A stretch of DNA of 64,000 nucleotides from an uncultured Granulosicoccaceae bacterium (GTDB lineage: Bacteria; Pseudomonadota; Gammaproteobacteria; CALCKW01), in assembly GCA_937965695.1 (NCBI GenBank), contig CALCKW010000027.1:8150-72149 (forward strand), written 5' to 3'. Under the pieces are notes generated by a model. The model was given only the letters and a program-made list of their open reading frames with translations, was not told where the DNA came from and made no database searches. The translations under genes were made by a program, and so were the position numbers. This document shows positions 53,208 through 63,508 of the stretch, one piece after another (the stretch's first letter is position 1; each line of letters opens with the position of its first letter).

Positions 53208-53542
53208 GCGCTATCTCCCTCCTTAAAAACCTAAAACGGGCTAACCTAAAACCCTTATTCATTGGTGCACATCTAGACTATCCCACATCAACGCAGAACC
53301 GGCAAATAACCGCCTGACCGCACGTTTCATGAGCATAAGTATCTTGAGCATGTATTAGCTCGCTGCACGAATGTTCGTGGCTGCCGGTTGCCACATCCAT
53401 GGCAAGCGTCCACCTAAACGTTCGACCAACTGCCGCCCTGAATAAGACCGAATCCGCAGCACAGGGTCGCTACCGCGCAGGTCTGCAAATTGCCCTATTG
53501 AAAAACCATATTCACATTCTTACAAAAAGGGTTTTATTCAAT

Positions 53543-54445
53543 ATGCACTCTGATCCACGAGAGTTGGGACAATTTATTCCAGCGCACTATCACGCCAATA
53601 TGCTCAACGACGAAACACGCATGCGTGGTTTTCAAGAAGCGATTGATTACTTAGTTCCCGAGGGAGCTCGGGTGGTCGAGCTCGGTGGTGGCACTGGTGT
53701 GTTATCCCATTTTGCGGCACAACGAGCTTCGAAAGTATGGTGCGTTGAATTTAACCCAGATCTTATAAAAACGGCCAGCGTGTTGTTACCGCAAAATACT
53801 CGCGGTGACCGCATCGAGTTAGTCCATGCAAATGCCAACGACTGGCTCCCACCAGAGCCGGTAGATGTGGTGATCTGCGAAATGTTACACACCGGCCTTT
53901 TGCGAGAGCAGCAGGTAAACGTGATACATAATTTCAAGCAACGTTACACAGCACACTTTGGAGGTCCTCTACCGGCTTTTATTCCGGAGGCTTGCTTACA
54001 GGCAATCCAACCCATTGAACAAGACTTTGTCCATGAAGGTTTTTTTGCACCTTGCCTGCAGTTTCAATCACCGGTAACACAGCAAGCTCGGAGCCAAGAA
54101 AAAGGTCCACCTACTGTATTCCAAGCTTTTCGTTGGGATGAAAACATCCCCATGAACTGCTCCTTCGACAATGCCTTGCAGGTCGACCGAGATGGCCGCG
54201 TTAATGCAATAAGAGTCATCACTAAGAATTTATTAGCTATCGTAGAAGACCAGCAGCGAAGCATTGATTGGCACAACCAGTACCTGATTGTGCCGCTGCC
54301 TCAACCCATAGACGTTTGTGCTGGTGATAAGCTCGCCGTGTCATTCAGCTATGCGCCTGGAAGCCCACTAACTGCACTGACTCAGTCTCTAGATGTGCAG
54401 CGAATGGCTCAATATGCAAGCAACGCCCTCACTGCAGAAAACTGA
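53543..54445 (+). CDS. SAM-dependent methyltransferase, protein-arginine-methyltransferase-like
   Basis: MLNDETR, VVELGGGTG, WCVE, VDVVICEMLHTGLLRE. Start 53543 (MHSDP) preferred over 53399. Confidence 0.75.
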   Translation: MHSDPRELGQFIPAHYHANMLNDETRMRGFQEAIDYLVPEGARVVELGGGTGVLSHFAAQRASKVWCVEFNPDLIKTASVLLPQNTRGDRIELVHANANDWLPPEPVDVVICEMLHTGLLREQQVNVIHNFKQRYTAHFGGPLPAFIPEACLQAIQPIEQDFVHEGFFAPCLQFQSPVTQQARSQEKGPPTVFQAFRWDENIPMNCSFDNALQVDRDGRVNAIRVITKNLLAIVEDQQRSIDWHNQYLIVPLPQPIDVCAGDKLAVSFSYAPGSPLTALTQSLDVQRMAQYASNALTAEN

Positions 54446-54480: not shown

Positions 54481-56100
54481 TCAAGGTCGACTGAACATCC
54501 CAACAATTCCGACTTCAACTTCTGCTTTGTCTAGAAGTGGTTTTAACAAAGTCATCACGCGCAGCGACGCGCGGCTGCCGTCTAATTTCTCCAAGGCTTT
54601 GATCAGTTGCGGCTGAGCTTTTTGAAAAACGAGCGCAATCATGTGGTCTTCGCCTAACGGTTCAGAGACTCGCAATGGCATAGACCACTGCCGCCGACCG
54701 TAGCGCACGGGATCACCATACTTAGTCAAAGGGTAAACTAGCTGCACCGTGCCGTCACCAGCTACGTTCAATACAATCAGAAAATCGCCAGACTGCTCTG
54801 AAAAAAAAGGTTCAATCCGAGTCCCAATGGTATGGCTAGACGAACTCGGCAAAAGGTCCGCGCGCAATAACTTTCGACGCGCAGCATTTTTTAACATCTC
54901 CATCGATACACGTTTCTCAAGTGCGCCACTCAGCGCCTTTTGTAACGTTTCCACGTTTGAACCCAAAAGCCCAGTGGCGACTAAGTCCCCTGCACTGGAC
55001 AACAAATCACCACTCTGGCTATGCAAAATAAAATCTGCATTTTTAACGCTCTGTACCCACTGCAAACCGACTATCGCACCGGCCAATTTTTGCTTTGAGC
55101 TGTCAGCTAGATCATAGCTGTAGACATGATGTTGGGTACGAACACCTACAACAGCTGGCCTTATGCTTTCACGCGTCAGTGCAACAACAGCTTGATTGGG
55201 TTGCGCTAAGGGACTCAATTCAGGTGTCTGCTGCCGTTCAGAAAGCAGGCTAACATTCTCTAAGATGTAGTGACGCAGCTCCGCGCGAGTAAGCACAAGA
55301 TCCCCGTCTGCATCGGCTTCACCTTCGAGGGCCCTGGCAAAAACAAAACTCAATGCACCGCGAGTGTCGGACTCTCCATCTACCGATTTAACAAATATTT
55401 CCGGGATTTCTTGGCTCTCCAGGCCCGCGCTTAAAAAAGTCAAATAGGGGAGATCCTGTTTATCTAACTTCGCCACTTGCGGTTCTATTTCTACCGTTAA
55501 CTCTGCTTCTAGTCCTTGTTCAAAGTCGATATCAACCAAACGGCTCTGCAGGGACTGAAAGCGGGGATCCGCAGCGCGCGTCATCGTTCCGGAGTGACAC
55601 GAGTCCGCTACAAAAAGTACCTGCACGCCCTTTCCTTCAGCAGCACTGAACCATTCGTACAGTTGATTATCTCGGATAATTTCGCGCTGACCTGCCCGGG
55701 TGTTCGCGTAGCCATTTAAAACAAAAACATCATCTAGCCCGTCAGCCTCAGACCCAACAACCGATTCTGGCACGCGGCTTCCGTGACCGGCATAGCTAAA
55801 AACAAGTGTGTCGCCGGGACTTGATCGCTCCAGCATTGCAAACCACTGCTGCTTTATAGCATTGTGGTTCGCCTGTTCATTCAACAGCACGGATACAACA
55901 CTATCAGGTAGTTTATCCAGACTGGCAGCGATATCGTTAGCATCGTTAACGGCACCTGCTAGTGGCGGTAGACTCTGATACTCGTTGACGCCCAGGACAA
56001 GAGCATGGATTCTGGCTTCAACGGCTGAAACCTTCAGACTAAAAAGTAGTATAAGCAATACCCGCCACGGGTTACTTATTTGCACTTTTGCACAAATCAA
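54481..56100 (-). CDS. Exported caspase-family (peptidase C14, metacaspase-like) protein with C-terminal DUF4384-like domain
   Basis: Signal peptide, ALVLGVNEY, LAGAVNDA, YAGHG, DSCHSG. C-terminal LIVLNVAGDGTVQLVYP..PLGEDHM. Confidence 0.88.
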   Translation of the reverse strand: MICAKVQISNPWRVLLILLFSLKVSAVEARIHALVLGVNEYQSLPPLAGAVNDANDIAASLDKLPDSVVSVLLNEQANHNAIKQQWFAMLERSSPGDTLVFSYAGHGSRVPESVVGSEADGLDDVFVLNGYANTRAGQREIIRDNQLYEWFSAAEGKGVQVLFVADSCHSGTMTRAADPRFQSLQSRLVDIDFEQGLEAELTVEIEPQVAKLDKQDLPYLTFLSAGLESQEIPEIFVKSVDGESDTRGALSFVFARALEGEADADGDLVLTRAELRHYILENVSLLSERQQTPELSPLAQPNQAVVALTRESIRPAVVGVRTQHHVYSYDLADSSKQKLAGAIVGLQWVQSVKNADFILHSQSGDLLSSAGDLVATGLLGSNVETLQKALSGALEKRVSMEMLKNAARRKLLRADLLPSSSSHTIGTRIEPFFSEQSGDFLIVLNVAGDGTVQLVYPLTKYGDPVRYGRRQWSMPLRVSEPLGEDHMIALVFQKAQPQLIKALEKLDGSRASLRVMTLLKPLLDKAEVEVGIVGMFSRP

Positions 56101-57032
56101 TGGGCGGGCGCCAATCTAATCAACTCAACTCGACGGTTGAGCTGCCAGCGTTGCTCAGTGCTGTAGGCTCCGGCACTGCTAAGAACCAAGGGCTGACTTT
56201 CGCCCCTTCCACTCGCTTGGACATCCAGCTGCAAGCCTTTTCCGAGTAACCACTGCTGCACTTTCTCAGCACGCGCTAAGGACAATGCCAAATTGTATTT
56301 TTCACTACCGCGCTCATCCGCATGTCCAATGATTTCTATCGCGCTAGTATTCTGATTCCGCAGTGCTAGAAACAGTGCCTCAGCGGCCTTAGCACCTTGT
56401 GGGCTAAAATCGGTACTGCCCGTTTTAAAGCTAATAGGCAAAGGCGCACGTTGCACGCTAAATCCACGCACCGTCTCAGCTAACACTCCGCTGGCAACAC
56501 CTCGCACTTGCGGTGGCGGCACAAACTCGTCGGCCAAAAGCAGCGATTCAGCAGCCAATTGATGAATGGATTCAATGGTTTTCTCAGAAGGCGCTGTTGG
56601 TGTTTCAAAACTATCGTCGATAAGCGCTAACGCTCGTTGAAGACGACGCGCCGCCAGGCCGTATCGACCAGCGCCATGATCTCGAGACCCTAAGAAGCTA
56701 AGCGCGCGCCAGGTAGGTGCAATTGTTTCAGAAAGCTCAAGCAGTTGATCAACGTCTGATTCCGCCATGTCAGCGTCAACGCCTTTGTAGGCCACGCTAA
56801 ACAATCTGTTGGCCGTGGCACGGCGGGCCTTATGTTTCTGTGTGGCACTGCAACGGTTACTGACATTGAATATCTCAAATGCTTTAGAGATGGCCGCTAC
56901 ATCAATTAAAGACGCCGCTTGGTTAAATGCTTTTAGCTGAGATTGGCAATCACTTGCTAGCACTTGCTTGTTTAACGACAACAACATCAGTGCACAGCTT
57001 AAAGCCAAAATCCTTGAGTTAAAGATGATCAC
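56097..57032 (-). CDS. Exported OmpA-C domain protein with N-terminal helical (TPR-like) region
   Basis: Signal peptide, ISFKTGS, IIGHADERGSEKYNLALSLARA, NRRVE. Confidence 0.85.
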   Translation of the reverse strand: MIIFNSRILALSCALMLLSLNKQVLASDCQSQLKAFNQAASLIDVAAISKAFEIFNVSNRCSATQKHKARRATANRLFSVAYKGVDADMAESDVDQLLELSETIAPTWRALSFLGSRDHGAGRYGLAARRLQRALALIDDSFETPTAPSEKTIESIHQLAAESLLLADEFVPPPQVRGVASGVLAETVRGFSVQRAPLPISFKTGSTDFSPQGAKAAEALFLALRNQNTSAIEIIGHADERGSEKYNLALSLARAEKVQQWLLGKGLQLDVQASGRGESQPLVLSSAGAYSTEQRWQLNRRVELIRLAPAH

Positions 57033-57949
57033 CCACCCTGCCCCAGCAAACCATTCGCCATTTCACAAAGAGCTACTCGGCTGTTTGGCAGTGGCTTCTT
57101 CAAGCGCAGTGTCAAAAAATGTTGCTTAGAAAAATCGTCTTCCATTAGGTCTTTTAAGGTTTCCGCCTGCTGCTGCCAAAAATCTTTATCCGAAGCATTT
57201 ACTTGGCAAGCAAGGGCTGTCACCAAGCTCCAGCTCCCGAGAGCTTGGTTGCGTATCGCTTGCTCAGAGCAATCGCCATCGGTACTTTCTTCGCAGCTGA
57301 TTATTTTTGGCAAAGCTTTTTGCCAATCGTTCCAACGCGGGTCACTGATATCAGTCACTTTAGCCGCCGCCGCTGACAACCCCAATTGAAACTGTCGCTT
57401 GTCGTGGTTCGTCGCGCTGGCATTCAATGACTGTATAGATTTAGTCATGCGGGCGAGAACAGGAGGAAACTCGGCACCCAGCAGCTGTTCTGCACTGCCG
57501 AGCTGTTGTTGAAAAGCCCTGGACGCTATGTCGGAGGAAGGAGAAAAAATCATTGGCACCATCACAACAGCAAATAATCCTGCCGCAACTGCAGCACCCC
57601 AGCCAGAACTTATATTTAGTGGAATACGTGAAATCAGCTTCCCCGCCCATGTGGAGGTCTCAGTAACGTCAGCAGAGCTGCCTGGCTTTGGTTGGTCTTC
57701 CCTAGGACCTGTTGCATCGAAATCGTTTAACCAGCGCTGCTCAGCACACAAATCTCGCCATTGGCCGTAACATAACTCGTCGTTCGCGACATAGCTGAGC
57801 ACTTCATCGGCCCGCTGCTCTCCCAATGTCCCTAGCCGCCATTGATCAATTTCATGCAGATCCGGCCGCTCGCCACGCACGGAGCCCTGCATAAGTTTTG
57901 AGGCCGCTTGGGCAAAAAGCCACGCTCGCCTTCGCGATTCGGTATTCAT
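57029..57949 (-). CDS. Putative single-pass anti-sigma-factor-like protein
   Basis: N-terminal RPDLHEIDQWRLGTLGEQRADEVLSYVANDELC resembles a degenerate zf-HC2/ZAS domain. One TM segment (WGAAVAAGLFAVVMVPMIF). Directly downstream of a sigma-like gene. Confidence 0.55.
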   Translation of the reverse strand: MNTESRRRAWLFAQAASKLMQGSVRGERPDLHEIDQWRLGTLGEQRADEVLSYVANDELCYGQWRDLCAEQRWLNDFDATGPREDQPKPGSSADVTETSTWAGKLISRIPLNISSGWGAAVAAGLFAVVMVPMIFSPSSDIASRAFQQQLGSAEQLLGAEFPPVLARMTKSIQSLNASATNHDKRQFQLGLSAAAAKVTDISDPRWNDWQKALPKIISCEESTDGDCSEQAIRNQALGSWSLVTALACQVNASDKDFWQQQAETLKDLMEDDFSKQHFLTLRLKKPLPNSRVALCEMANGLLGQGG

Positions 57950-58040
57950 ATTAAGTCCCTAGTGCCTGCCATTGAGCGGCATTTCAACTTCACCTTGTTG
58001 CTAACGTACGGCAAACGCGCCAATGACGGTTGACACAAGT

Positions 58041-58889
58041 TCACAGGGGAAAAATATCCAACATGACCGCCAGTACTTTTTTACGACGACTGCGAATCTG
58101 CGGCACGCTAAGACCTAAGTCTTCGGCGATTTCGCGCTCTGTTGGCTCTCGCTCACTGTCACACAGTACCCCCAACCCTCGACCTAAATAGGCATTCAAA
58201 ACCAATCGGTCGTGATCATCCAGACCTAATTCACTCCAAGATTCCTCCGCCAATTGGTGCATGCGTTGGCGGTCTACTTCACCACTGATTTCAGCAGCAC
58301 CAACCAGTGACTCGATGAAATGGCGCATTTGATCAAAAGCGACCTCATCTTCCGGCTGCAGTTGATCCGACCCCAGCCCTGCAAAAGGAGATACCGAATC
58401 CTCGTCATCGCTGCTCTCCCGCGCCATCTGTCGGTGCCATGGCGAGCATTCCTGTACTTCTTGCATTTGATCAAAAATGCTAACGGCCATAGCTTGCGCC
58501 GCTTCTATACTCGGCGCATCCCCAGGTACCCGCCCCAACTTTTTTGCTTGTTCGCTTACCCAAGCGTCTAACTCACTGCGCTTGCGCCCTTGCAAACAAA
58601 TAACCTTAAAAAGTTTTTTGCCTAACTCACCTAAATCATCAAGCCATTTTCGAGGCCTAGGAAAGCCGTGTCGCTCACGCACACAATCGGTGAGCGCATT
58701 TTTAAAAACAGAAAGTATTAACGCATCAGTAGCTTCAGCTTCCGCATAATCACTGAGCTTCATTGCCGTCATTGAAGCTGCGTCCTCAGCCAAGGTCTGG
58801 TAATCCTCCAGATGGCCGTACAAAGCGTTCGCCCTACCCAAAAAGCGATTCGACCACTGGCTGGAATACAGCTTTTCAATCCAATCCAT
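58041..58889 (-). CDS. Atypical ECF-like sigma-70 factor
   Basis: Sigma2-like AEDAASMTAMKL and SVFKNALTDCVR. Sigma4-like HTH LDDHDRLVL..EREIAEDLGLSVPQIRSRRKKVL. Start 58889 (MDWIEK) preferred. Confidence 0.6.
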   Translation of the reverse strand: MDWIEKLYSSQWSNRFLGRANALYGHLEDYQTLAEDAASMTAMKLSDYAEAEATDALILSVFKNALTDCVRERHGFPRPRKWLDDLGELGKKLFKVICLQGRKRSELDAWVSEQAKKLGRVPGDAPSIEAAQAMAVSIFDQMQEVQECSPWHRQMARESSDDEDSVSPFAGLGSDQLQPEDEVAFDQMRHFIESLVGAAEISGEVDRQRMHQLAEESWSELGLDDHDRLVLNAYLGRGLGVLCDSEREPTEREIAEDLGLSVPQIRSRRKKVLAVMLDIFPL

Positions 58890-59155
58890 TATCTGACACC
58901 GAAGATCCTTAAACACCGGCCTTGCGACAAGACCAATAGCAATCCACAAATCTAAGGGATCTTTGCATCACATGCAAAACAATTTGAGCAGTCATTAAAT
59001 GAATGCTGGCGCAGGTGGCCATATCAGCGCTCTGAACGACGGTTCGTGAACGTTGGCTTGGTCGAGGGCGTTTGTCTGGTCAAACAGCCTGCACGGTCTA
59101 GAGATAAACGCGATGGCTATTTACAAATAGCGGATAGCGGTGTGGACAACAAGCG

Positions 59156-60736
59156 CTAACGCATCACGACGTCTAGGGCAGGTTCAAAAATTTGGTCCAA
59201 GGCCCGATTCGTCGCTCTAGCCAATCCGGCTTCACCTTGGAAATAGTATTTTTTACTAAACGTTTCCGCGTTGCCCACAGAAAACACAAGCTGCAATTCT
59301 CCAGCTGAGTTGTCGTCACGCATACGAACCACCACGCCCATCATGCCTTGCTCGTCATGCGTCTGATAACGATAGACCTCTCGATCAATACCGTACTTAG
59401 AGCGTTTACGTTTTATCCAACCGCCGGAACTGCGTTCAGTGGTGAGCAGCTGGCCATCTAAGCCATGACTAGCGAGGCGATCAAACAGTTCTTTCTTCAC
59501 CGCCCCTGTGACTTCGCTTTCACTACTGAAATTGACTTCCCAGTGCATTGCAGCGCCCAATACTTTTGTCGGGGCAACTCCGACGCGAATACTGGCTTGC
59601 TGATTTTCAACGGTACTGACGTTGGCCGCTAAACCGAGTTCTGCGTCAACTAACGACTGCCGCAGTTGCAACGCAGAAGTGACAAAGCGGCCGTCGGGGT
59701 ATTTGCGCAAATATTCTTCGTAGCCGGCCACGCTTGGCTTTTCGAGTGCTTCCTGCCAGAACAATAACTCAGCACGGAGTTCGAAGTCACTGGCTATCGC
59801 CTCCGGTGAAGCGTCCTCCGGACTCACTGGCTGTAGCGGATTGACAAGTGAGCTAAAAACGACATCACCACGAGACAGGGCATAGTCGTTGATTTTGCCG
59901 TGCTGTGGCGTCTGACTCGCGAAGGGGACATTCTGAGTCAAATGCAGCCCCAATTCTGTGCTAGTCACGTATCCGTCACGGTTTAAGTCAGCCGCACCGG
60001 ACTCAAAAGAATCAACAAATGCCCGTGTGAACGCACTCTCAGCGGGGACTGTTTCATTGGCACTACCCGATGTAATGAAGTAGCGCACAGGCTTTTCCAA
60101 CAAACCTTCTAAAGAGCGGCCGCTGCTTGAAGCAAAGCCACGCGACTGGAAAATCGACCCTGAGAAGCAACTATCAAACACAAACATCGCATGCTTAGAT
60201 TGAATCTCCTTGGCCATTGCCATCACCCGATTCATCGACAAAGCCCTAGTAATAAAGCCGTGTTTATCACTGCTGTAGGGCGGTGCGTCTGCGGGTACCA
60301 GGTAGCCCATGGATTGTTGTTCTGAGAGCTGGATCGTCTCTCCGTGGCCAGCAAAATAGACCAACAGTCGATTATTTGGATCTCCCCCCTTATCGACAGC
60401 AAAATCACTCAAACTGCTCAGCAGCTCTTGGCTAGATACATTGCTTAGCGTCTCTACCTCAAACCCCTGGCGCTGTAACATACGCTCTACTGAGGCCAGC
60501 TCATGTGGGATGCTCGGTAACTTGTCCCATGCGGGGTGCGTGTATTCGCTGTTCCCAATAAGCAGCGCGTAGCTGGCACTGTAGTGATCTGACAACTGAG
60601 GGCCAACGGCACCCACACCCGCGATACGCGCAACGCCACGCGTTTCTACCCCAGCGGTAGCAAGGCTTGAAATGAAGTACAGAGCGGCAGCGAAAAGACA
60701 GATAAATCTTCGCCACAAAGTTACCCTAGCAATCAT
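59156..60736 (-). CDS. Exported caspase-family (peptidase C14) protein
   Basis: Signal peptide, YALLIGNSEY, YFAGHG, FDSCFSG, DLNRDGYVTSTEL, FWQ..Y..YLRKYPDGRF. Start 60736 (MIARV) preferred over 60775. Confidence 0.88.
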   Translation of the reverse strand: MIARVTLWRRFICLFAAALYFISSLATAGVETRGVARIAGVGAVGPQLSDHYSASYALLIGNSEYTHPAWDKLPSIPHELASVERMLQRQGFEVETLSNVSSQELLSSLSDFAVDKGGDPNNRLLVYFAGHGETIQLSEQQSMGYLVPADAPPYSSDKHGFITRALSMNRVMAMAKEIQSKHAMFVFDSCFSGSIFQSRGFASSSGRSLEGLLEKPVRYFITSGSANETVPAESAFTRAFVDSFESGAADLNRDGYVTSTELGLHLTQNVPFASQTPQHGKINDYALSRGDVVFSSLVNPLQPVSPEDASPEAIASDFELRAELLFWQEALEKPSVAGYEEYLRKYPDGRFVTSALQLRQSLVDAELGLAANVSTVENQQASIRVGVAPTKVLGAAMHWEVNFSSESEVTGAVKKELFDRLASHGLDGQLLTTERSSGGWIKRKRSKYGIDREVYRYQTHDEQGMMGVVVRMRDDNSAGELQLVFSVGNAETFSKKYYFQGEAGLARATNRALDQIFEPALDVVMR

Positions 60737-60768
60737 CGGCTCTTTCCAATCTGACTCGTGCGCTAAGT

Positions 60769-62145
60769 CTAACACCCAGAGGCTGCGCAGACAGTCAATA
60801 CGAGGGCACTCGCGTCGACGCTTTCATCGGGAGACAGCGCTAAGGCCTGCAAGCGTTCAAAGTCAGCGGTCTCCGGCCGCAGAAACACACCTAAAGGCTC
60901 GCCTCGCGCATCGCGTTGATGGCTTGACGCAAAGAGGTTTATTCGCTGCTGACTGACAACACTAACAATTAGCGAATCACCAAAAGGTCGACCAGCGGGC
61001 CACTCAAATCCTTTTTTGGGTAAATTAATCACCCCTGCCTCAAATTGATTATCGTGATGGTATTCATTGGGGAACAGCACGACTACCTGGTCATCCGAAT
61101 TAACCGCAACAATATTTAGATAACCTGCTGTAGGCATCTCCACTTCCAGTTCCAACAACTGACCTTGATCGTAATATTCGCGCGAGGGTTGCACTTGCAA
61201 TGGCGCACTGTGTTTGACCAGCGAAGACCAATCATCCCACGCTGGATGCAATTGTCTCGCTTGGCCAGCTTCTGCGACAAAAAGGCCTTTATCCTGCAAC
61301 AAAATCGGATCACCTATGAGGCTAGGATGAAATCGAAATTTTTGCGGCACACTGCTCATTACGGTTTTCTCCGCCGCAGCAATCAATTGAAAGGGATCGC
61401 CATTTCTGCCCTCTCTTACTGCCTGCTGTAGCGCAAGTGTGAAAACACTGCCTCGGTTTGTCGCCAGAGACTGTTCGCCGTCTTGTGCCGCCGCCAAAAA
61501 AACCATGCCCTCTACAGACTCGGCATCGGCAAACCCGGCCGCAGAGTCTGTTTGTGTTGAGCGGCAGCGTCGAGACTTAACGACGAATTCACCTTGGCCA
61601 TAAGCGCTCTGCGTCAATGAATGGCTGCGTACAGCCGTGCCACTACAACAGGCATCTACCACGACCGCAATACGCTCACTGGGGATGGCGGACAGCAATT
61701 GATTAAATTCATCATCGCGAAGAACACCCGAATATTCACCGTTCGAGAATGCCAGATTATGCATGGTCAAAACTTCATCAAAACCATCGCGTTCATCACC
61801 GTTTTGATCCGGCACTTGAGAACCGTGGCCGCTGTAATAGACAAGCACACGATCTTCAGCCGATATATCTTCGAGCAACCACGTGCTCATCACCTCGCGG
61901 ACATTTTCGCTAGTCACTTCCGAGTCACGCAATAAACGGATGTTTTCTTCCAAGTAGCCCATTTCAAGCGCCACCCCTTGCATAACTTTTAAATCTAGAG
62001 ATATACCCGGGAGGTTATTCTCTGCACTGGCGTACTCTCCTACCCCTATCAACAACGCTTTGTCAGCTGCAGCAACCGGCAACGCTAGGGTAATAGTCGC
62101 GGCAAAACTAGTTGCGATGATGCATCTAAGCACGCGAAGAAACAT
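60769..62145 (-). CDS. Exported metacaspase-like peptidase C14 with C-terminal DUF4384-like domain
   Basis: Signal peptide MFLRVLRC..VAAA, ALLIGVGEY, YYSGHG, DQNGDERDGFDE, DACCSG. C-terminal YLNIVAVNSDDQVVVLFPN..PFGDSL. Start 62145 or 62154 preferred over 62436. Confidence 0.88.
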   Translation of the reverse strand: MFLRVLRCIIATSFAATITLALPVAAADKALLIGVGEYASAENNLPGISLDLKVMQGVALEMGYLEENIRLLRDSEVTSENVREVMSTWLLEDISAEDRVLVYYSGHGSQVPDQNGDERDGFDEVLTMHNLAFSNGEYSGVLRDDEFNQLLSAIPSERIAVVVDACCSGTAVRSHSLTQSAYGQGEFVVKSRRCRSTQTDSAAGFADAESVEGMVFLAAAQDGEQSLATNRGSVFTLALQQAVREGRNGDPFQLIAAAEKTVMSSVPQKFRFHPSLIGDPILLQDKGLFVAEAGQARQLHPAWDDWSSLVKHSAPLQVQPSREYYDQGQLLELEVEMPTAGYLNIVAVNSDDQVVVLFPNEYHHDNQFEAGVINLPKKGFEWPAGRPFGDSLIVSVVSQQRINLFASSHQRDARGEPLGVFLRPETADFERLQALALSPDESVDASALVLTVCAASGC

Positions 62146-62230
62146 GGTGTGCATCCTTAATTTTGGTAATACATGCCGTGGAAGTGCCTGCGATGCGAAA
62201 CGCAACGCAGGTGCCGCGATCATTTTTTTC

Positions 62231-63508
62231 TCAGCGTACATTGAGATCAACCCCCTGCAACAAATGGCTGGCCCACTGCTGATCAGGTAGACCTTGCAGC
62301 CCCTTCCAAAACACATTGAAGTCTCCCCCATGCCTCGGCAATTCAACACCGTCAGCCGTCCAAACAACCCAGGCTGCGGAATCGGCGTGGTCGACAGCAC
62401 GCAGTCGGCCCATACGAGTTTCACGATATTCACCATGATGCCATCGACTGGATTGGGGCCTTAGCTGTAATTCACTGTGAGCCGCTGTCACTGAGACCGC
62501 AGTAATCCAACCGGGCTCGGCAGAGATCGCGGCTAAGCTCGAGCGGTCCGATTGCTGCTGAATTTTTGTCAGAAATCGATCCTCAGCGGTGCATTTATAC
62601 AACAGCGACACTCCACGCATAGCGCTTGAGCTGCCACCTAATGGTCGAATAGCCGGTGCAAAATCTCCATCAAATTGAGGCCATTGCACACCACCGGTTT
62701 CATCGCGAACCTGCGCTCGTGCTCGTTGAAACCAACACCAGGCGTTGTCTTGTTCAGCTGCCATCTGTGCATTAAACAGTGCACGTGTAAAAACGCTACC
62801 GGATTCGTCAATATCTGCCAGCTCACCGTCAGCCGCTGCGGACAGCAACAATACACCAGGTTGAGACAATTCATCGAGCGAGTTAGCGGATGTAGTCGTC
62901 GACTCGCTGCGAAGCCAAGACGGCATTTGAATAAACTTACCCACTCTAGTTATTGCTTCACCGATATCATCTGACAGAGATTTGCTTATGGTGCCGCTAT
63001 GACAGGTGTCAGCGATGATGACTTTTCGATGATTTGGTAAAGCCGCTAGCATTTCTGCCAATTGGTCATCCAACAATGCACCACTCACTTCTACATCTTC
63101 GCCAGCCTTACCGATAGAAAAATCTGCCAACGCCATCGCCTCATCACGGCCATCCATTTCGTCCCCATTTTGATCATCCAACTGCAAACCGTGCGTAGAT
63201 AGATACAAATAAAAAATATCTTCCGGTTGCAGCTCATCGACAAATTGACGCATCCGCAATACCACCGCATCAAGCGTTGCCTGCTCGTTATAAAGCTGAG
63301 TGATATCTCTTTCACTGACACCCAGCCGGAGCATGATTTCTTTAGCCTTTTTCAAATCTTGATCAACGCCAAGAATATCCAATTGCTGATCTTGGTAATC
63401 ACCGACCCCTACAAGCAAAGCCACAGAGCGCGCCTCAGCGATTCCAGTCCAGAGGCCAAGCGCTGCAAAAGCCATAAAAAACTGCCAAACGATTGATTTA
63501 TGCAGCAA
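62231..63508 (-). CDS. Exported metacaspase-like peptidase C14
   Basis: TTG start at 63508 with AGGAG RBS, signal peptide ending IAEA, ALLVGVGDY, YLSTHG, DQNGDEMDGRDE, DTCHSG. Confidence 0.87.
   Translation of the reverse strand: MLHKSIVWQFFMAFAALGLWTGIAEARSVALLVGVGDYQDQQLDILGVDQDLKKAKEIMLRLGVSERDITQLYNEQATLDAVVLRMRQFVDELQPEDIFYLYLSTHGLQLDDQNGDEMDGRDEAMALADFSIGKAGEDVEVSGALLDDQLAEMLAALPNHRKVIIADTCHSGTISKSLSDDIGEAITRVGKFIQMPSWLRSESTTTSANSLDELSQPGVLLLSAAADGELADIDESGSVFTRALFNAQMAAEQDNAWCWFQRARAQVRDETGGVQWPQFDGDFAPAIRPLGGSSSAMRGVSLLYKCTAEDRFLTKIQQQSDRSSLAAISAEPGWITAVSVTAAHSELQLRPQSSRWHHGEYRETRMGRLRAVDHADSAAWVVWTADGVELPRHGGDFNVFWKGLQGLPDQQWASHLLQGVDLNVR

What the first reader, a model, noticed from the sequence alone, without database searches (positions are those of the whole stretch)
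54481..63508. Recurring [T/V/S/M]-[R/K]-[G/S]-hydrophobic motif across the caspase locus, a candidate shared cleavage site
Seen: VETRGV just after the signal peptide and FQSRGF just after the catalytic Cys in 59156-60736. QVRGV and TVRGF lie in the linker before the OmpA domain (about 56460-56507). MTKSI is in the periplasmic part of the anti-sigma. ISKSL and AMRGV are in 62231-63508, and DTRGA is in 54481-56100. Established: metacaspases have an acidic S1 pocket and cut after Arg/Lys. An acidic residue is present in the L.G..ND-type motif (AVNDA, ISLDL, VDQDL) and in D-x-C here. Inference: these are self- and cross-processing sites that define the cascade substrates.
Basis: partly seen in the sequence, partly recalled or inferred. 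Interest (0 to 1): 0.62.

Follow-up and report, generated by a model that had tools for sequence, protein, structure and literature searches.

The report
Conserved Arg-Gly sites in caspase locus
The short motif that seems to recur across this bacterial caspase gene cluster is no commoner than chance as one pattern, but several of its copies mark strongly conserved arginine sites that are good, still untested candidates for where these proteases cut themselves and a partner cell-wall-binding protein.

Summary
The count is 9 against about 3-4 expected (nominal P 0.005-0.02). It does not survive correction: with Arg/Lys fixed and the other three classes chosen freely, all 200 shuffled loci gave a pattern at least as enriched.

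The hits are heterogeneous.
- FQSRGF and ISKSL occupy one homologous position, a basic residue 7-9 residues after the catalytic Cys. So do 99 of 99 distant homologues of the C14_B type. The loop is predicted flexible.
- QVRGV and TVRGF mark two near-invariant arginines (93% and 97% of 142 relatives, median 30% identity) in an OmpA-domain family. Its gene lay directly upstream of a C14 peptidase gene in all 10 loci seen.
- ETRGV is an Arg-Gly at fixed spacing after the signal peptide in 57% of distant homologues.
- The Lys of MTKSI is invariant, but only within a narrow clade.
- DTRGA lies in a conserved core motif.
- AMRGV and FVKSV are not conserved.

A basic P1 preference is plausible but untested. 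No cleavage has been shown.

The parts
54481..56100 (-). C14_A: exported Peptidase_C14 with a DUF4384-like C-terminal part; dyad YAGHG / DSCHSG
   Evidence: Pfam; full-length orthologues next to OmpA-partner genes in distant loci
55573..55584 (-). MTRA: Arg at Cys+7 of C14_A.
   Evidence: Arg invariant in 7 orthologues down to 26% identity; paralogue alignment
55354..55365 (-). TRGA of C14_A, part of the conserved core motif R-G-A-L-S
   Evidence: Arg in 6 of 7 (His in one); P2 varies T/P/A; G-A-L-S invariant; kept in a catalytically dead orthologue
55381..55392 (-). VKSV of C14_A: chance match
   Evidence: Lys replaced by S/D/D in distant orthologues
56097..57032 (-). OmpA-partner protein: signal peptide, all-helical N-domain with two invariant Cys, twin-Arg segment, OmpA-like domain
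   Evidence: Pfam; AlphaFold model pLDDT 90; 565 family representatives at E<1e-30
56496..56507 (-). VRGV: first family-hallmark Arg (R177). Family consensus [TNSD]-R-[SAGT]-G-x-P-G-G-L
   Evidence: Arg in 132 of 142 relatives; lies between two 2-residue beta bridges in the model
56460..56471 (-). VRGF: second family-hallmark Arg-Gly (R189-G190). Consensus [IVFL]-R-G-[FVI]
   Evidence: Arg 137 of 142, Gly 120 of 142. R177 and R189 are the only conserved basic positions outside the canonical OmpA motifs
57029..57949 (-). Anti-sigma-like single-pass membrane protein; periplasmic C-terminal part with four invariant Cys
   Evidence: No Pfam or NCBIfam hit; only 11 relatives among 5.8 billion proteins
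57434..57445 (-). TKSI: R167, T169 and K170 invariant, about 33 residues beyond the membrane helix
   Evidence: 11-sequence alignment; P1' is S/A/N
58041..58889 (-). Sigma-like protein (cytoplasmic); no motif hit
   Evidence: Weak Sigma70_r3 and sigma70-ECF matches, both below curated cut-offs
59156..60736 (-). C14_B: exported Peptidase_C14 of the FDSCFSG type; closest solved fold is MALT1 paracaspase
   Evidence: Pfam; AlphaFold; Foldseek
60632..60643 (-). TRGV: Arg-Gly a few residues after the signal peptide
   Evidence: pLDDT below 50. RG lies 19-24 residues upstream of the domain in 48 of the 53 of 93 distant homologues (57%) that carry an RG 12-45 residues upstream, against 14% expected
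60134..60145 (-). SRGF: Arg at Cys+9 in the loop after the catalytic Cys
   Evidence: R/K at Cys+7 to +11 in 99 of 99 homologues; P1' A/S/G in 81, P2 S/T in 61; low-confidence loop
60769..62436 (-). C14_C: exported Peptidase_C14 + DUF4384. The longest ORF is given; the true start is probably near residue 95
   Evidence: Pfam; orthologues align from residue 92 or later
61621..61632 (-). VRSH: Arg at Cys+7 of C14_C.
   Evidence: Kept in 3 orthologues; paralogue alignment
62231..63508 (-). C14_D: exported Peptidase_C14
   Evidence: Pfam
62975..62986 (-). SKSL: Lys at Cys+7 of C14_D
   Evidence: Lys kept in orthologues, P2 varies S/G; homologous to the other post-Cys sites
62609..62620 (-). MRGV of C14_D: chance match
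   Evidence: Arg replaced by His or Phe in orthologues

Best explanation
There is no single shared motif. The degenerate four-residue pattern is a loose net that caught two chance matches (AMRGV, FVKSV) and one core structural motif (TRGA in RGALS). It also caught three separate, genuinely conserved 'Arg/Lys followed by a small residue' elements.

(a) A basic residue sits 7-10 positions after the catalytic Cys, in a predicted flexible loop, in all four paralogues and in every distant homologue examined. This is the place where animal caspases carry their inter-subunit cleavage site. I infer that it is the autoprocessing site of these peptidases, or a self-inhibitory residue that sits in the S1 pocket.

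(b) Two near-invariant arginines sit between paired beta bridges, read here as hairpin tips, between the helical domain and the OmpA-like domain of a widespread protein family. In every locus seen, its gene lies directly upstream of a C14_A-type peptidase gene. I infer that they are the contact points for that peptidase, either as cleavage sites or as substrate-like docking loops.

(c) An Arg-Gly sits just after the signal peptide of C14_B-type peptidases. Its role is unknown.

The invariant Lys of the anti-sigma-like protein is a candidate site-1 cut, but only a narrow clade supports it. Shown here: presence, conservation, gene pairing and predicted flexibility. Inferred: basic P1 specificity and any cleavage.
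For: Post-Cys basic residue: paralogue alignment, 7 of 7 C14_A orthologues, 99 of 99 C14_B-type homologues with small P1' in 81, low pLDDT for residues 191-208 of the model. OmpA partner: R177 in 132 of 142 and R189 in 137 of 142, at median 30% identity. These are the only conserved basic positions outside the OmpA core. They are absent from 96 Pal-like OmpA proteins. The gene is adjacent to a C14_A-type gene in 10 of 10 loci. N-terminal RG: 53 of 93 against 14% expected, pLDDT below 50. Specificity: His-Cys dyads and acidic residues at two metacaspase S1 positions. All characterised non-caspase C14 enzymes cut after Arg/Lys (PMC5756287). C14_B's closest solved fold is MALT1, whose substrate consensus is LxS/PR|G (PMC4659944). 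These four are the only C14 genes found in the held assembly (93.6% complete).
Against: No cleavage data exist. The OmpA-partner segment is modelled with pLDDT 91-94, and Gly at a hairpin tip is explained by turn geometry alone. In locus L021 the adjacent C14_A orthologue has lost both catalytic residues, yet the partner keeps the second Arg-Gly. That locus does hold another active C14/trypsin fusion. The pocket Cys of metacaspases is missing in all four paralogues. [RK][GS] dipeptides are better conserved than other R/K in general, including in the cytoplasmic sigma-like protein, so conservation of such dipeptides does not by itself point to proteolysis. If the N-terminal RG were cut, only 2-6 residues would be removed, which has no obvious use.
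Confidence: 0.5

Rival explanations
1. Nothing to do with proteolysis. The hits are chance matches plus Arg-Gly beta-turns and other structural residues that are conserved for folding or for another ligand, such as peptidoglycan.
For: Enrichment vanishes after look-elsewhere correction. Both OmpA-partner RG dipeptides sit between paired 2-residue beta bridges in a high-confidence segment. RGALS is a core motif kept even in a dead orthologue. [RK][GS] is generally better conserved, also in the cytoplasmic sigma-like protein. The second RG persists next to a dead C14_A.
Against: A basic residue in a flexible loop in 99 of 99 homologues, with its position shifting by one residue (+9 or +10), is not typical of a packed structural residue. 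The twin Arg is specific to the one OmpA family that is always paired with a C14 gene, and is absent from 96 other OmpA-domain proteins.
Confidence: 0.3
2. One reading: one shared [T/V/S/M]-[R/K]-[G/S]-hydrophobic cleavage motif defines self- and cross-processing substrates of a four-caspase cascade that ends at the anti-sigma factor.
For: Nominal enrichment of 9 against 3-4. 8 of 9 basic residues are kept in three orthologous loci, against a 47% baseline. All hits lie in exported proteins or periplasmic parts.
Against: The pattern was defined post hoc and is not significant. P2 and P2' preferences differ between sites: T/S against V/I/F at P2, and E/A against F at P2'. Two hits are not conserved. 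The homologous sites MTRA and AVRSH break the pattern. The core OmpA+C14_A pair exists widely without the sigma/anti-sigma genes.
Confidence: 0.08
3. The twin Arg hairpins of the OmpA partner are not cleaved. They act as substrate-like docking or inhibitory loops that hold the C14 peptidase at the cell wall, like a double-headed canonical inhibitor.
For: Two rigid, confidently modelled hairpin tips with an Arg followed by a small residue. Both are near-invariant. There is strict gene pairing. Related loci also carry a serpin, which shows that protease control is a theme in these loci.
Against: Canonical-inhibitor logic is established for serine proteases, not for C14 enzymes. No interaction data exist. 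The resemblance rests on my own knowledge, not on a test.
Confidence: 0.12

Closest known systems
Caspase inter-subunit (L2 loop) autoprocessing
   Same: A residue matching the predicted P1 preference sits in a flexible loop a few residues after the catalytic Cys (Cys+7 to +10 here; about Cys+12 in caspase-3, -7 and -1, from my own knowledge). It is conserved across the family.
   Different: P1 would be Arg/Lys rather than Asp. The enzymes are exported bacterial proteins. No processing has been shown.
Orthocaspase MaOC1 (Microcystis) and type II metacaspases AtMC4 / AtMC9
   Same: C14 fold, His-Cys dyad, acidic S1 positions and basic P1. MaOC1 needs autoprocessing for activity (PMC5756287). 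In AtMC4 a linker Lys occupies the active site before it is cut (my own knowledge).
   Different: The known autoprocessing sites lie about 45-85 residues after the Cys, not 7-10. The pocket Cys of metacaspases is absent here. These proteins carry signal peptides and DUF4384 or other C-terminal modules.
MALT1 paracaspase substrate consensus LxS/PR|G
   Same: C14_B's best solved-fold match is MALT1. Its two conserved sites read T-R-G and S-R-G, like MALT1's S-R|G (PMC4659944).
   Different: Sequence identity is only 15-18%. MALT1 is activated by dimerisation, not by L2 cleavage. P4 Leu is not conserved here.
RseA-DegS site-1 cleavage of an anti-sigma factor; Craspase (Csx29 cleaves Csx30, which holds an ECF sigma)
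   Same: A membrane anti-sigma-like protein is encoded with exported proteases. An invariant basic residue lies about 33 residues beyond the membrane helix, a distance similar to the RseA site-1 cut (my own knowledge).
   Different: The sigma-like and anti-sigma-like proteins fall below every curated family threshold. The protease would be a C14 enzyme rather than an HtrA-type enzyme. Nothing has been tested.

Membership tests
Peptidase C14 (metacaspase / orthocaspase-like) | Caspase/hemoglobinase p20 fold | tested here: met
   PF00656 above cut-off for all four. The C14_B model matches MALT1, caspase-9, GSU0716 and AtMC9.
Peptidase C14 (metacaspase / orthocaspase-like) | Catalytic His-Cys dyad | tested here: met
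   YAGHG/DSCHSG, FAGHG/DSCFSG, YSGHG/DACCSG, STHG/DTCHSG.
Peptidase C14 (metacaspase / orthocaspase-like) | Acidic S1 pocket (Asp of the GC-x-ND motif and Asp two residues before the Cys) | tested here: met
   D/E/D/D and D/D/D/D at the aligned columns.
Peptidase C14 (metacaspase / orthocaspase-like) | Conserved pocket Cys (TbMC2 Cys92, AtMC9 Cys29) | tested here: not met
   The aligned position is A, I, I, V in the four paralogues. The review warns that such proteins may differ in activity.
Peptidase C14 (metacaspase / orthocaspase-like) | Cleavage after Arg/Lys | not testable with these tools
   Needs enzyme assays.
Caspase-type L2-loop autoprocessing | Residue of the P1 class conserved in the loop after the catalytic Cys | tested here: met
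   All four paralogues, 7 of 7 C14_A orthologues, 99 of 99 C14_B-type homologues.
Caspase-type L2-loop autoprocessing | Loop exposed and flexible | tested here: met
   C14_B model: 10-residue blocks 191-200 and 201-210 have mean pLDDT 61 and 65, with 202-205 below 50. Not modelled for A, C or D.
Caspase-type L2-loop autoprocessing | The chain is actually cut there | not testable with these tools
   Needs mass spectrometry or Edman sequencing.
   Nominal P 0.005-0.02. 200 of 200 shuffles give an equally enriched post hoc pattern.
   8 of 9 basic residues kept at genus level. Beyond that, 5 are strongly kept, 1 mostly kept, 1 is known only in a narrow clade and 2 are lost.
   Yes for both C14_B sites. 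The OmpA sites lie in a confidently structured segment. The other proteins were not modelled.
ECF sigma / anti-sigma regulated proteolysis | Recognisable sigma-70 regions 2 and 4, and an anti-sigma domain | tested here: inconclusive
   Sigma70_r3 at 19.7 bits (cut-off 25.3) and sigma70-ECF at 21.2 bits (cut-off 42.9). The anti-sigma-like protein has no family hit.

The most novel reading that the evidence does not exclude
The OmpA-domain protein with twin Arg hairpins and the C14_A-type peptidase encoded directly downstream form a dedicated, widespread and undescribed periplasmic protease-target pair. The peptidase recognises, and perhaps cuts at, the two near-invariant arginines, which would free or re-position a peptidoglycan-binding domain. 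In Granulosicoccaceae this core has been wired to three more C14 paralogues and to a sigma/anti-sigma pair that would be cut at the invariant T-K|S.
Probability: 0.25. Interest if true: 0.7.

Novelty: new variant of a known kind. Interest (0 to 1): 0.45.

Why it matters
According to a 2017 review (PMC5756287), only one bacterial caspase homologue had then been characterised biochemically, and I found no natural substrates described in the papers searched. If the post-Cys basic residue is the autoprocessing site, it gives a simple, family-wide rule for how exported bacterial C14 peptidases mature. If the twin arginines of the OmpA partner are the target, this would be a genetically linked protease-substrate pair that can be tested directly in E. 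coli. It would also link caspase-like proteolysis to cell-wall attachment and, in this clade, to sigma-factor signalling. The negative result matters as well: short degenerate motifs read off a single locus should not be taken as cleavage consensus sequences.

Tried and rejected
- **Enrichment as evidence.** The nominal P is 0.005-0.02. I rejected it after the look-elsewhere shuffles.
- **Motif counts in orthologous loci as replicates.** The counts are 11, 11 and 4. I rejected them because conserved sites are shared by descent and the rest turn over.
- **Wider orthologue sets.** Searches with the sigma-like protein in genome and metagenome collections found only three loci. The anti-sigma family has just 11 members, so MTKSI cannot be tested at depth.
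- **Random sampling of genomes.** A search of 400 genomes of the phylum gave only 3 hits at E<=1e-30, two of them full-length loci. This is too sparse for a test of co-loss.
- **Named families.** NCBIfam and PADLOC gave none above cut-off.
- **Literature.** Searches for this gene pair or for DUF4384-caspase systems found nothing relevant.
- **Sequence search of solved structures with the C14_B domain.** Nothing significant was found. The fold search was needed instead.
- **General [RK][GS] conservation.** It is significant (Fisher P 0.008) but also holds in the cytoplasmic sigma-like protein, so I rejected it as specific evidence.
Full report
**Locus.** The finding spans seven minus-strand genes. 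In order of transcription they are:
- C14_D (62231-63508)
- C14_C (60769-62436 as the longest ORF; the true start is probably near residue 95)
- C14_B (59156-60736)
- a sigma-like protein (58041-58889)
- an anti-sigma-like membrane protein (57029-57949)
- an OmpA-domain protein (56097-57032)
- C14_A (54481-56100)

Pfam places all four C14 proteins in Peptidase_C14. C14_C also carries DUF4384, and the OmpA protein carries PF00691. The sigma-like protein reaches only sub-threshold sigma-70 scores, and the anti-sigma-like protein matches no family. The last three genes overlap by 4 bases each, which suggests one tight operon. These four are the only C14 genes found in the held assembly (93.6% complete). 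Its closest relatives are Granulosicoccaceae MAGs.

**Observation.** That makes 9 hits in 2996 residues. Three baselines were used:
- This genome's ORF set gives 1.03 hits per 1000 residues, or 3.1 expected (Poisson P 0.0046).
- Shuffling each protein gives 3.9 expected (P 0.017).
- Locus composition gives 3.9 expected (Poisson P 0.0185), the value used as reference in the look-elsewhere test.
- Only 0.9% of seven-gene neighbourhoods reach this density.

These numbers ignore that the four residue classes were chosen after the hits were seen. The real locus contains an arbitrary pattern with 12 hits against 1.9 expected. The recurrence is therefore not statistical evidence.

**Conservation near home.** Three orthologous loci were found (L008, L009, L010), with proteins 47-69% identical. 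The basic residue is kept at 8 of the 9 sites. AMRGV becomes MHGV or MFGV. The baseline for R/K conservation in these alignments is 47%. The orthologous loci also carry their own lineage-specific hits, as expected for chance matches.

**Post-Cys loop.** The paralogue alignment puts FQSRGF (C14_B) and ISKSL (C14_D) in the same position. All four paralogues therefore have Arg or Lys at Cys+7 to +9.
- The Arg is invariant in seven C14_A orthologues, down to 26% identity.
- The C14_B domain belongs to a very large family (FDSCFSG). In 99 of 99 aligned homologues (29-62% identity) there is an R/K at Cys+7 to +11, usually +9 or +10. P1' is A/S/G in 81 and P2 is S/T in 61.
- In the AlphaFold model of C14_B (mean pLDDT 81), the strand ends at the catalytic Cys. 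The 10-residue blocks 191-200 and 201-210 have mean pLDDT 61 and 65, and residues 202-205 fall below 50.

This is the topological place of the caspase inter-subunit linker. I infer an autoprocessing or self-inhibitory role. The inference is untested.

**N-terminal Arg-Gly of C14_B.** ETRGV lies in a segment with pLDDT below 50, directly after the signal helix. Of 93 distant homologues with enough N-terminal sequence, 53 carry an RG 12-45 residues upstream of the domain, against about 14% expected. In 48 of them it lies 19-24 residues upstream, typically 2-6 residues after the likely signal-peptidase site. This is a family hallmark of unknown role. A cut there would remove only a few residues.

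**OmpA partner.** This is the strongest result.
- The protein belongs to a distinct family: a signal peptide, an all-helical domain with two invariant Cys, then the segment carrying the two motifs, then an OmpA-like domain.
- A full HMMER search found 565 cluster representatives at E<1e-30.
- In an alignment of 142 full-length members (median 30% identity to the window protein), R177 is Arg in 132 and R189 in 137. G190 is Gly in 120, and both positions are basic in 128.
- Of the 34 basic positions in the window protein, only five are at least 90% basic in the family. They are R177, R189 and the three canonical OmpA-core arginines.
- Site 1 reads [TNSD]-R-[SAGT]-G-x-P-G-G-L across the family, and site 2 reads [IVFL]-R-G-[FVI].
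- None of 96 Pal-like OmpA proteins has such a segment.
- In every locus I could inspect (10 of 10), the gene lies directly upstream of a C14_A-type gene. This includes distant loci that lack the sigma/anti-sigma pair.

Against a simple 'cleavable linker' reading, the segment is modelled with pLDDT 91-94. Each RG sits between two 2-residue beta bridges, which I read as a hairpin tip. Gly conservation could therefore be structural. In L021 the adjacent C14_A orthologue has lost His and Cys, while the partner keeps the second RG. That locus does still encode an active trypsin-C14-DUF4384 fusion and a serpin. Thirteen family members have inserts of 29-111 residues between the RG segment and the OmpA domain, so the true linker lies after the motifs.

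**Other sites.**
- MTKSI: R167, T169 and K170 are invariant in 11 orthologues and P1' is S/A/N. The family is confined to this clade.
- DTRGA lies in the core motif R-G-A-L-S. Arg is kept in 6 of 7, P2 varies, and the motif persists in the dead orthologue.
- FVKSV is lost in distant orthologues.

**Specificity.** The closest solved relatives by sequence are metacaspases. A review states that all characterised non-caspase C14 enzymes cut after Arg/Lys, and it also stresses a pocket Cys (PMC5756287). That Cys is absent in all four paralogues. C14_B's best fold match is MALT1, whose substrate consensus LxS/PR|G (PMC4659944) resembles T-R-G and S-R-G.

**Verdict.** Several hits mark conserved basic residues that are plausible C14 recognition sites, others are chance or core structure, and no cleavage has been shown. 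Two earlier notes from this scan report similar Ser/Thr-Arg-Gly sharing between exported C14 or CHAT proteases and their neighbours in other genomes. They are leads only and were not tested here.

Noticed in passing
L005 2527-4302 and 5707-7050; L006 14813-16831 and 12047-13444: Orthologous loci in two related genomes (G002, G003) carry two extra genes that the window lacks: a 591-672 aa protein between C14_D and C14_C, and a 447-465 aa probable lipoprotein between C14_C and C14_B.
   Followed up: no
window 53399-54445 (+): A methyltransferase that another note of this scan describes as PRMT-like lies next to C14_A. It keeps that neighbouring position in both related genomes (L005 13625-14530, L006 4580-5485). 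An arginine methyltransferase beside a locus of presumed Arg-directed proteases may be worth a look.
   Followed up: no
L021 5110-6606: The C14_A orthologue next to OmpA partner P0016 has lost both catalytic residues (AGAGG for AGHGS, DTGHVD for DSCHSG), so it is a pseudo-protease. It still keeps T-R-G-A.
   Followed up: partly
L021 6603-10513; L020 7204-10939: Distant versions of the locus add a fusion of an apparently Arg/Lys-specific trypsin domain with C14 and DUF4384, followed by a 411 aa protein. Pfam calls it a serpin in L021. The one in L020 I did not check.
   Followed up: partly
L019 1564-7138 and 14846-16693: Caspase-family proteins of the DACRNNPF type in a distant locus carry S-R-G-L or G-R-G-L in the loop after the catalytic Cys. 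A basic residue followed by a small residue after the Cys may therefore be common to several bacterial C14 subfamilies.
   Followed up: no
window 62231-62436: The longest ORF of C14_C runs about 95 codons upstream of where its orthologues start, and it overlaps the 3' end of C14_D. The real start is probably the Met of MHTMFLRVL or nearby.
   Followed up: partly
window 58041-58889: The sigma-like protein is about 280 aa with a long acidic insert. It scores below the curated cut-offs of every sigma-70 model tried, and only three relatives were found in the genome and metagenome collections.
   Followed up: partly
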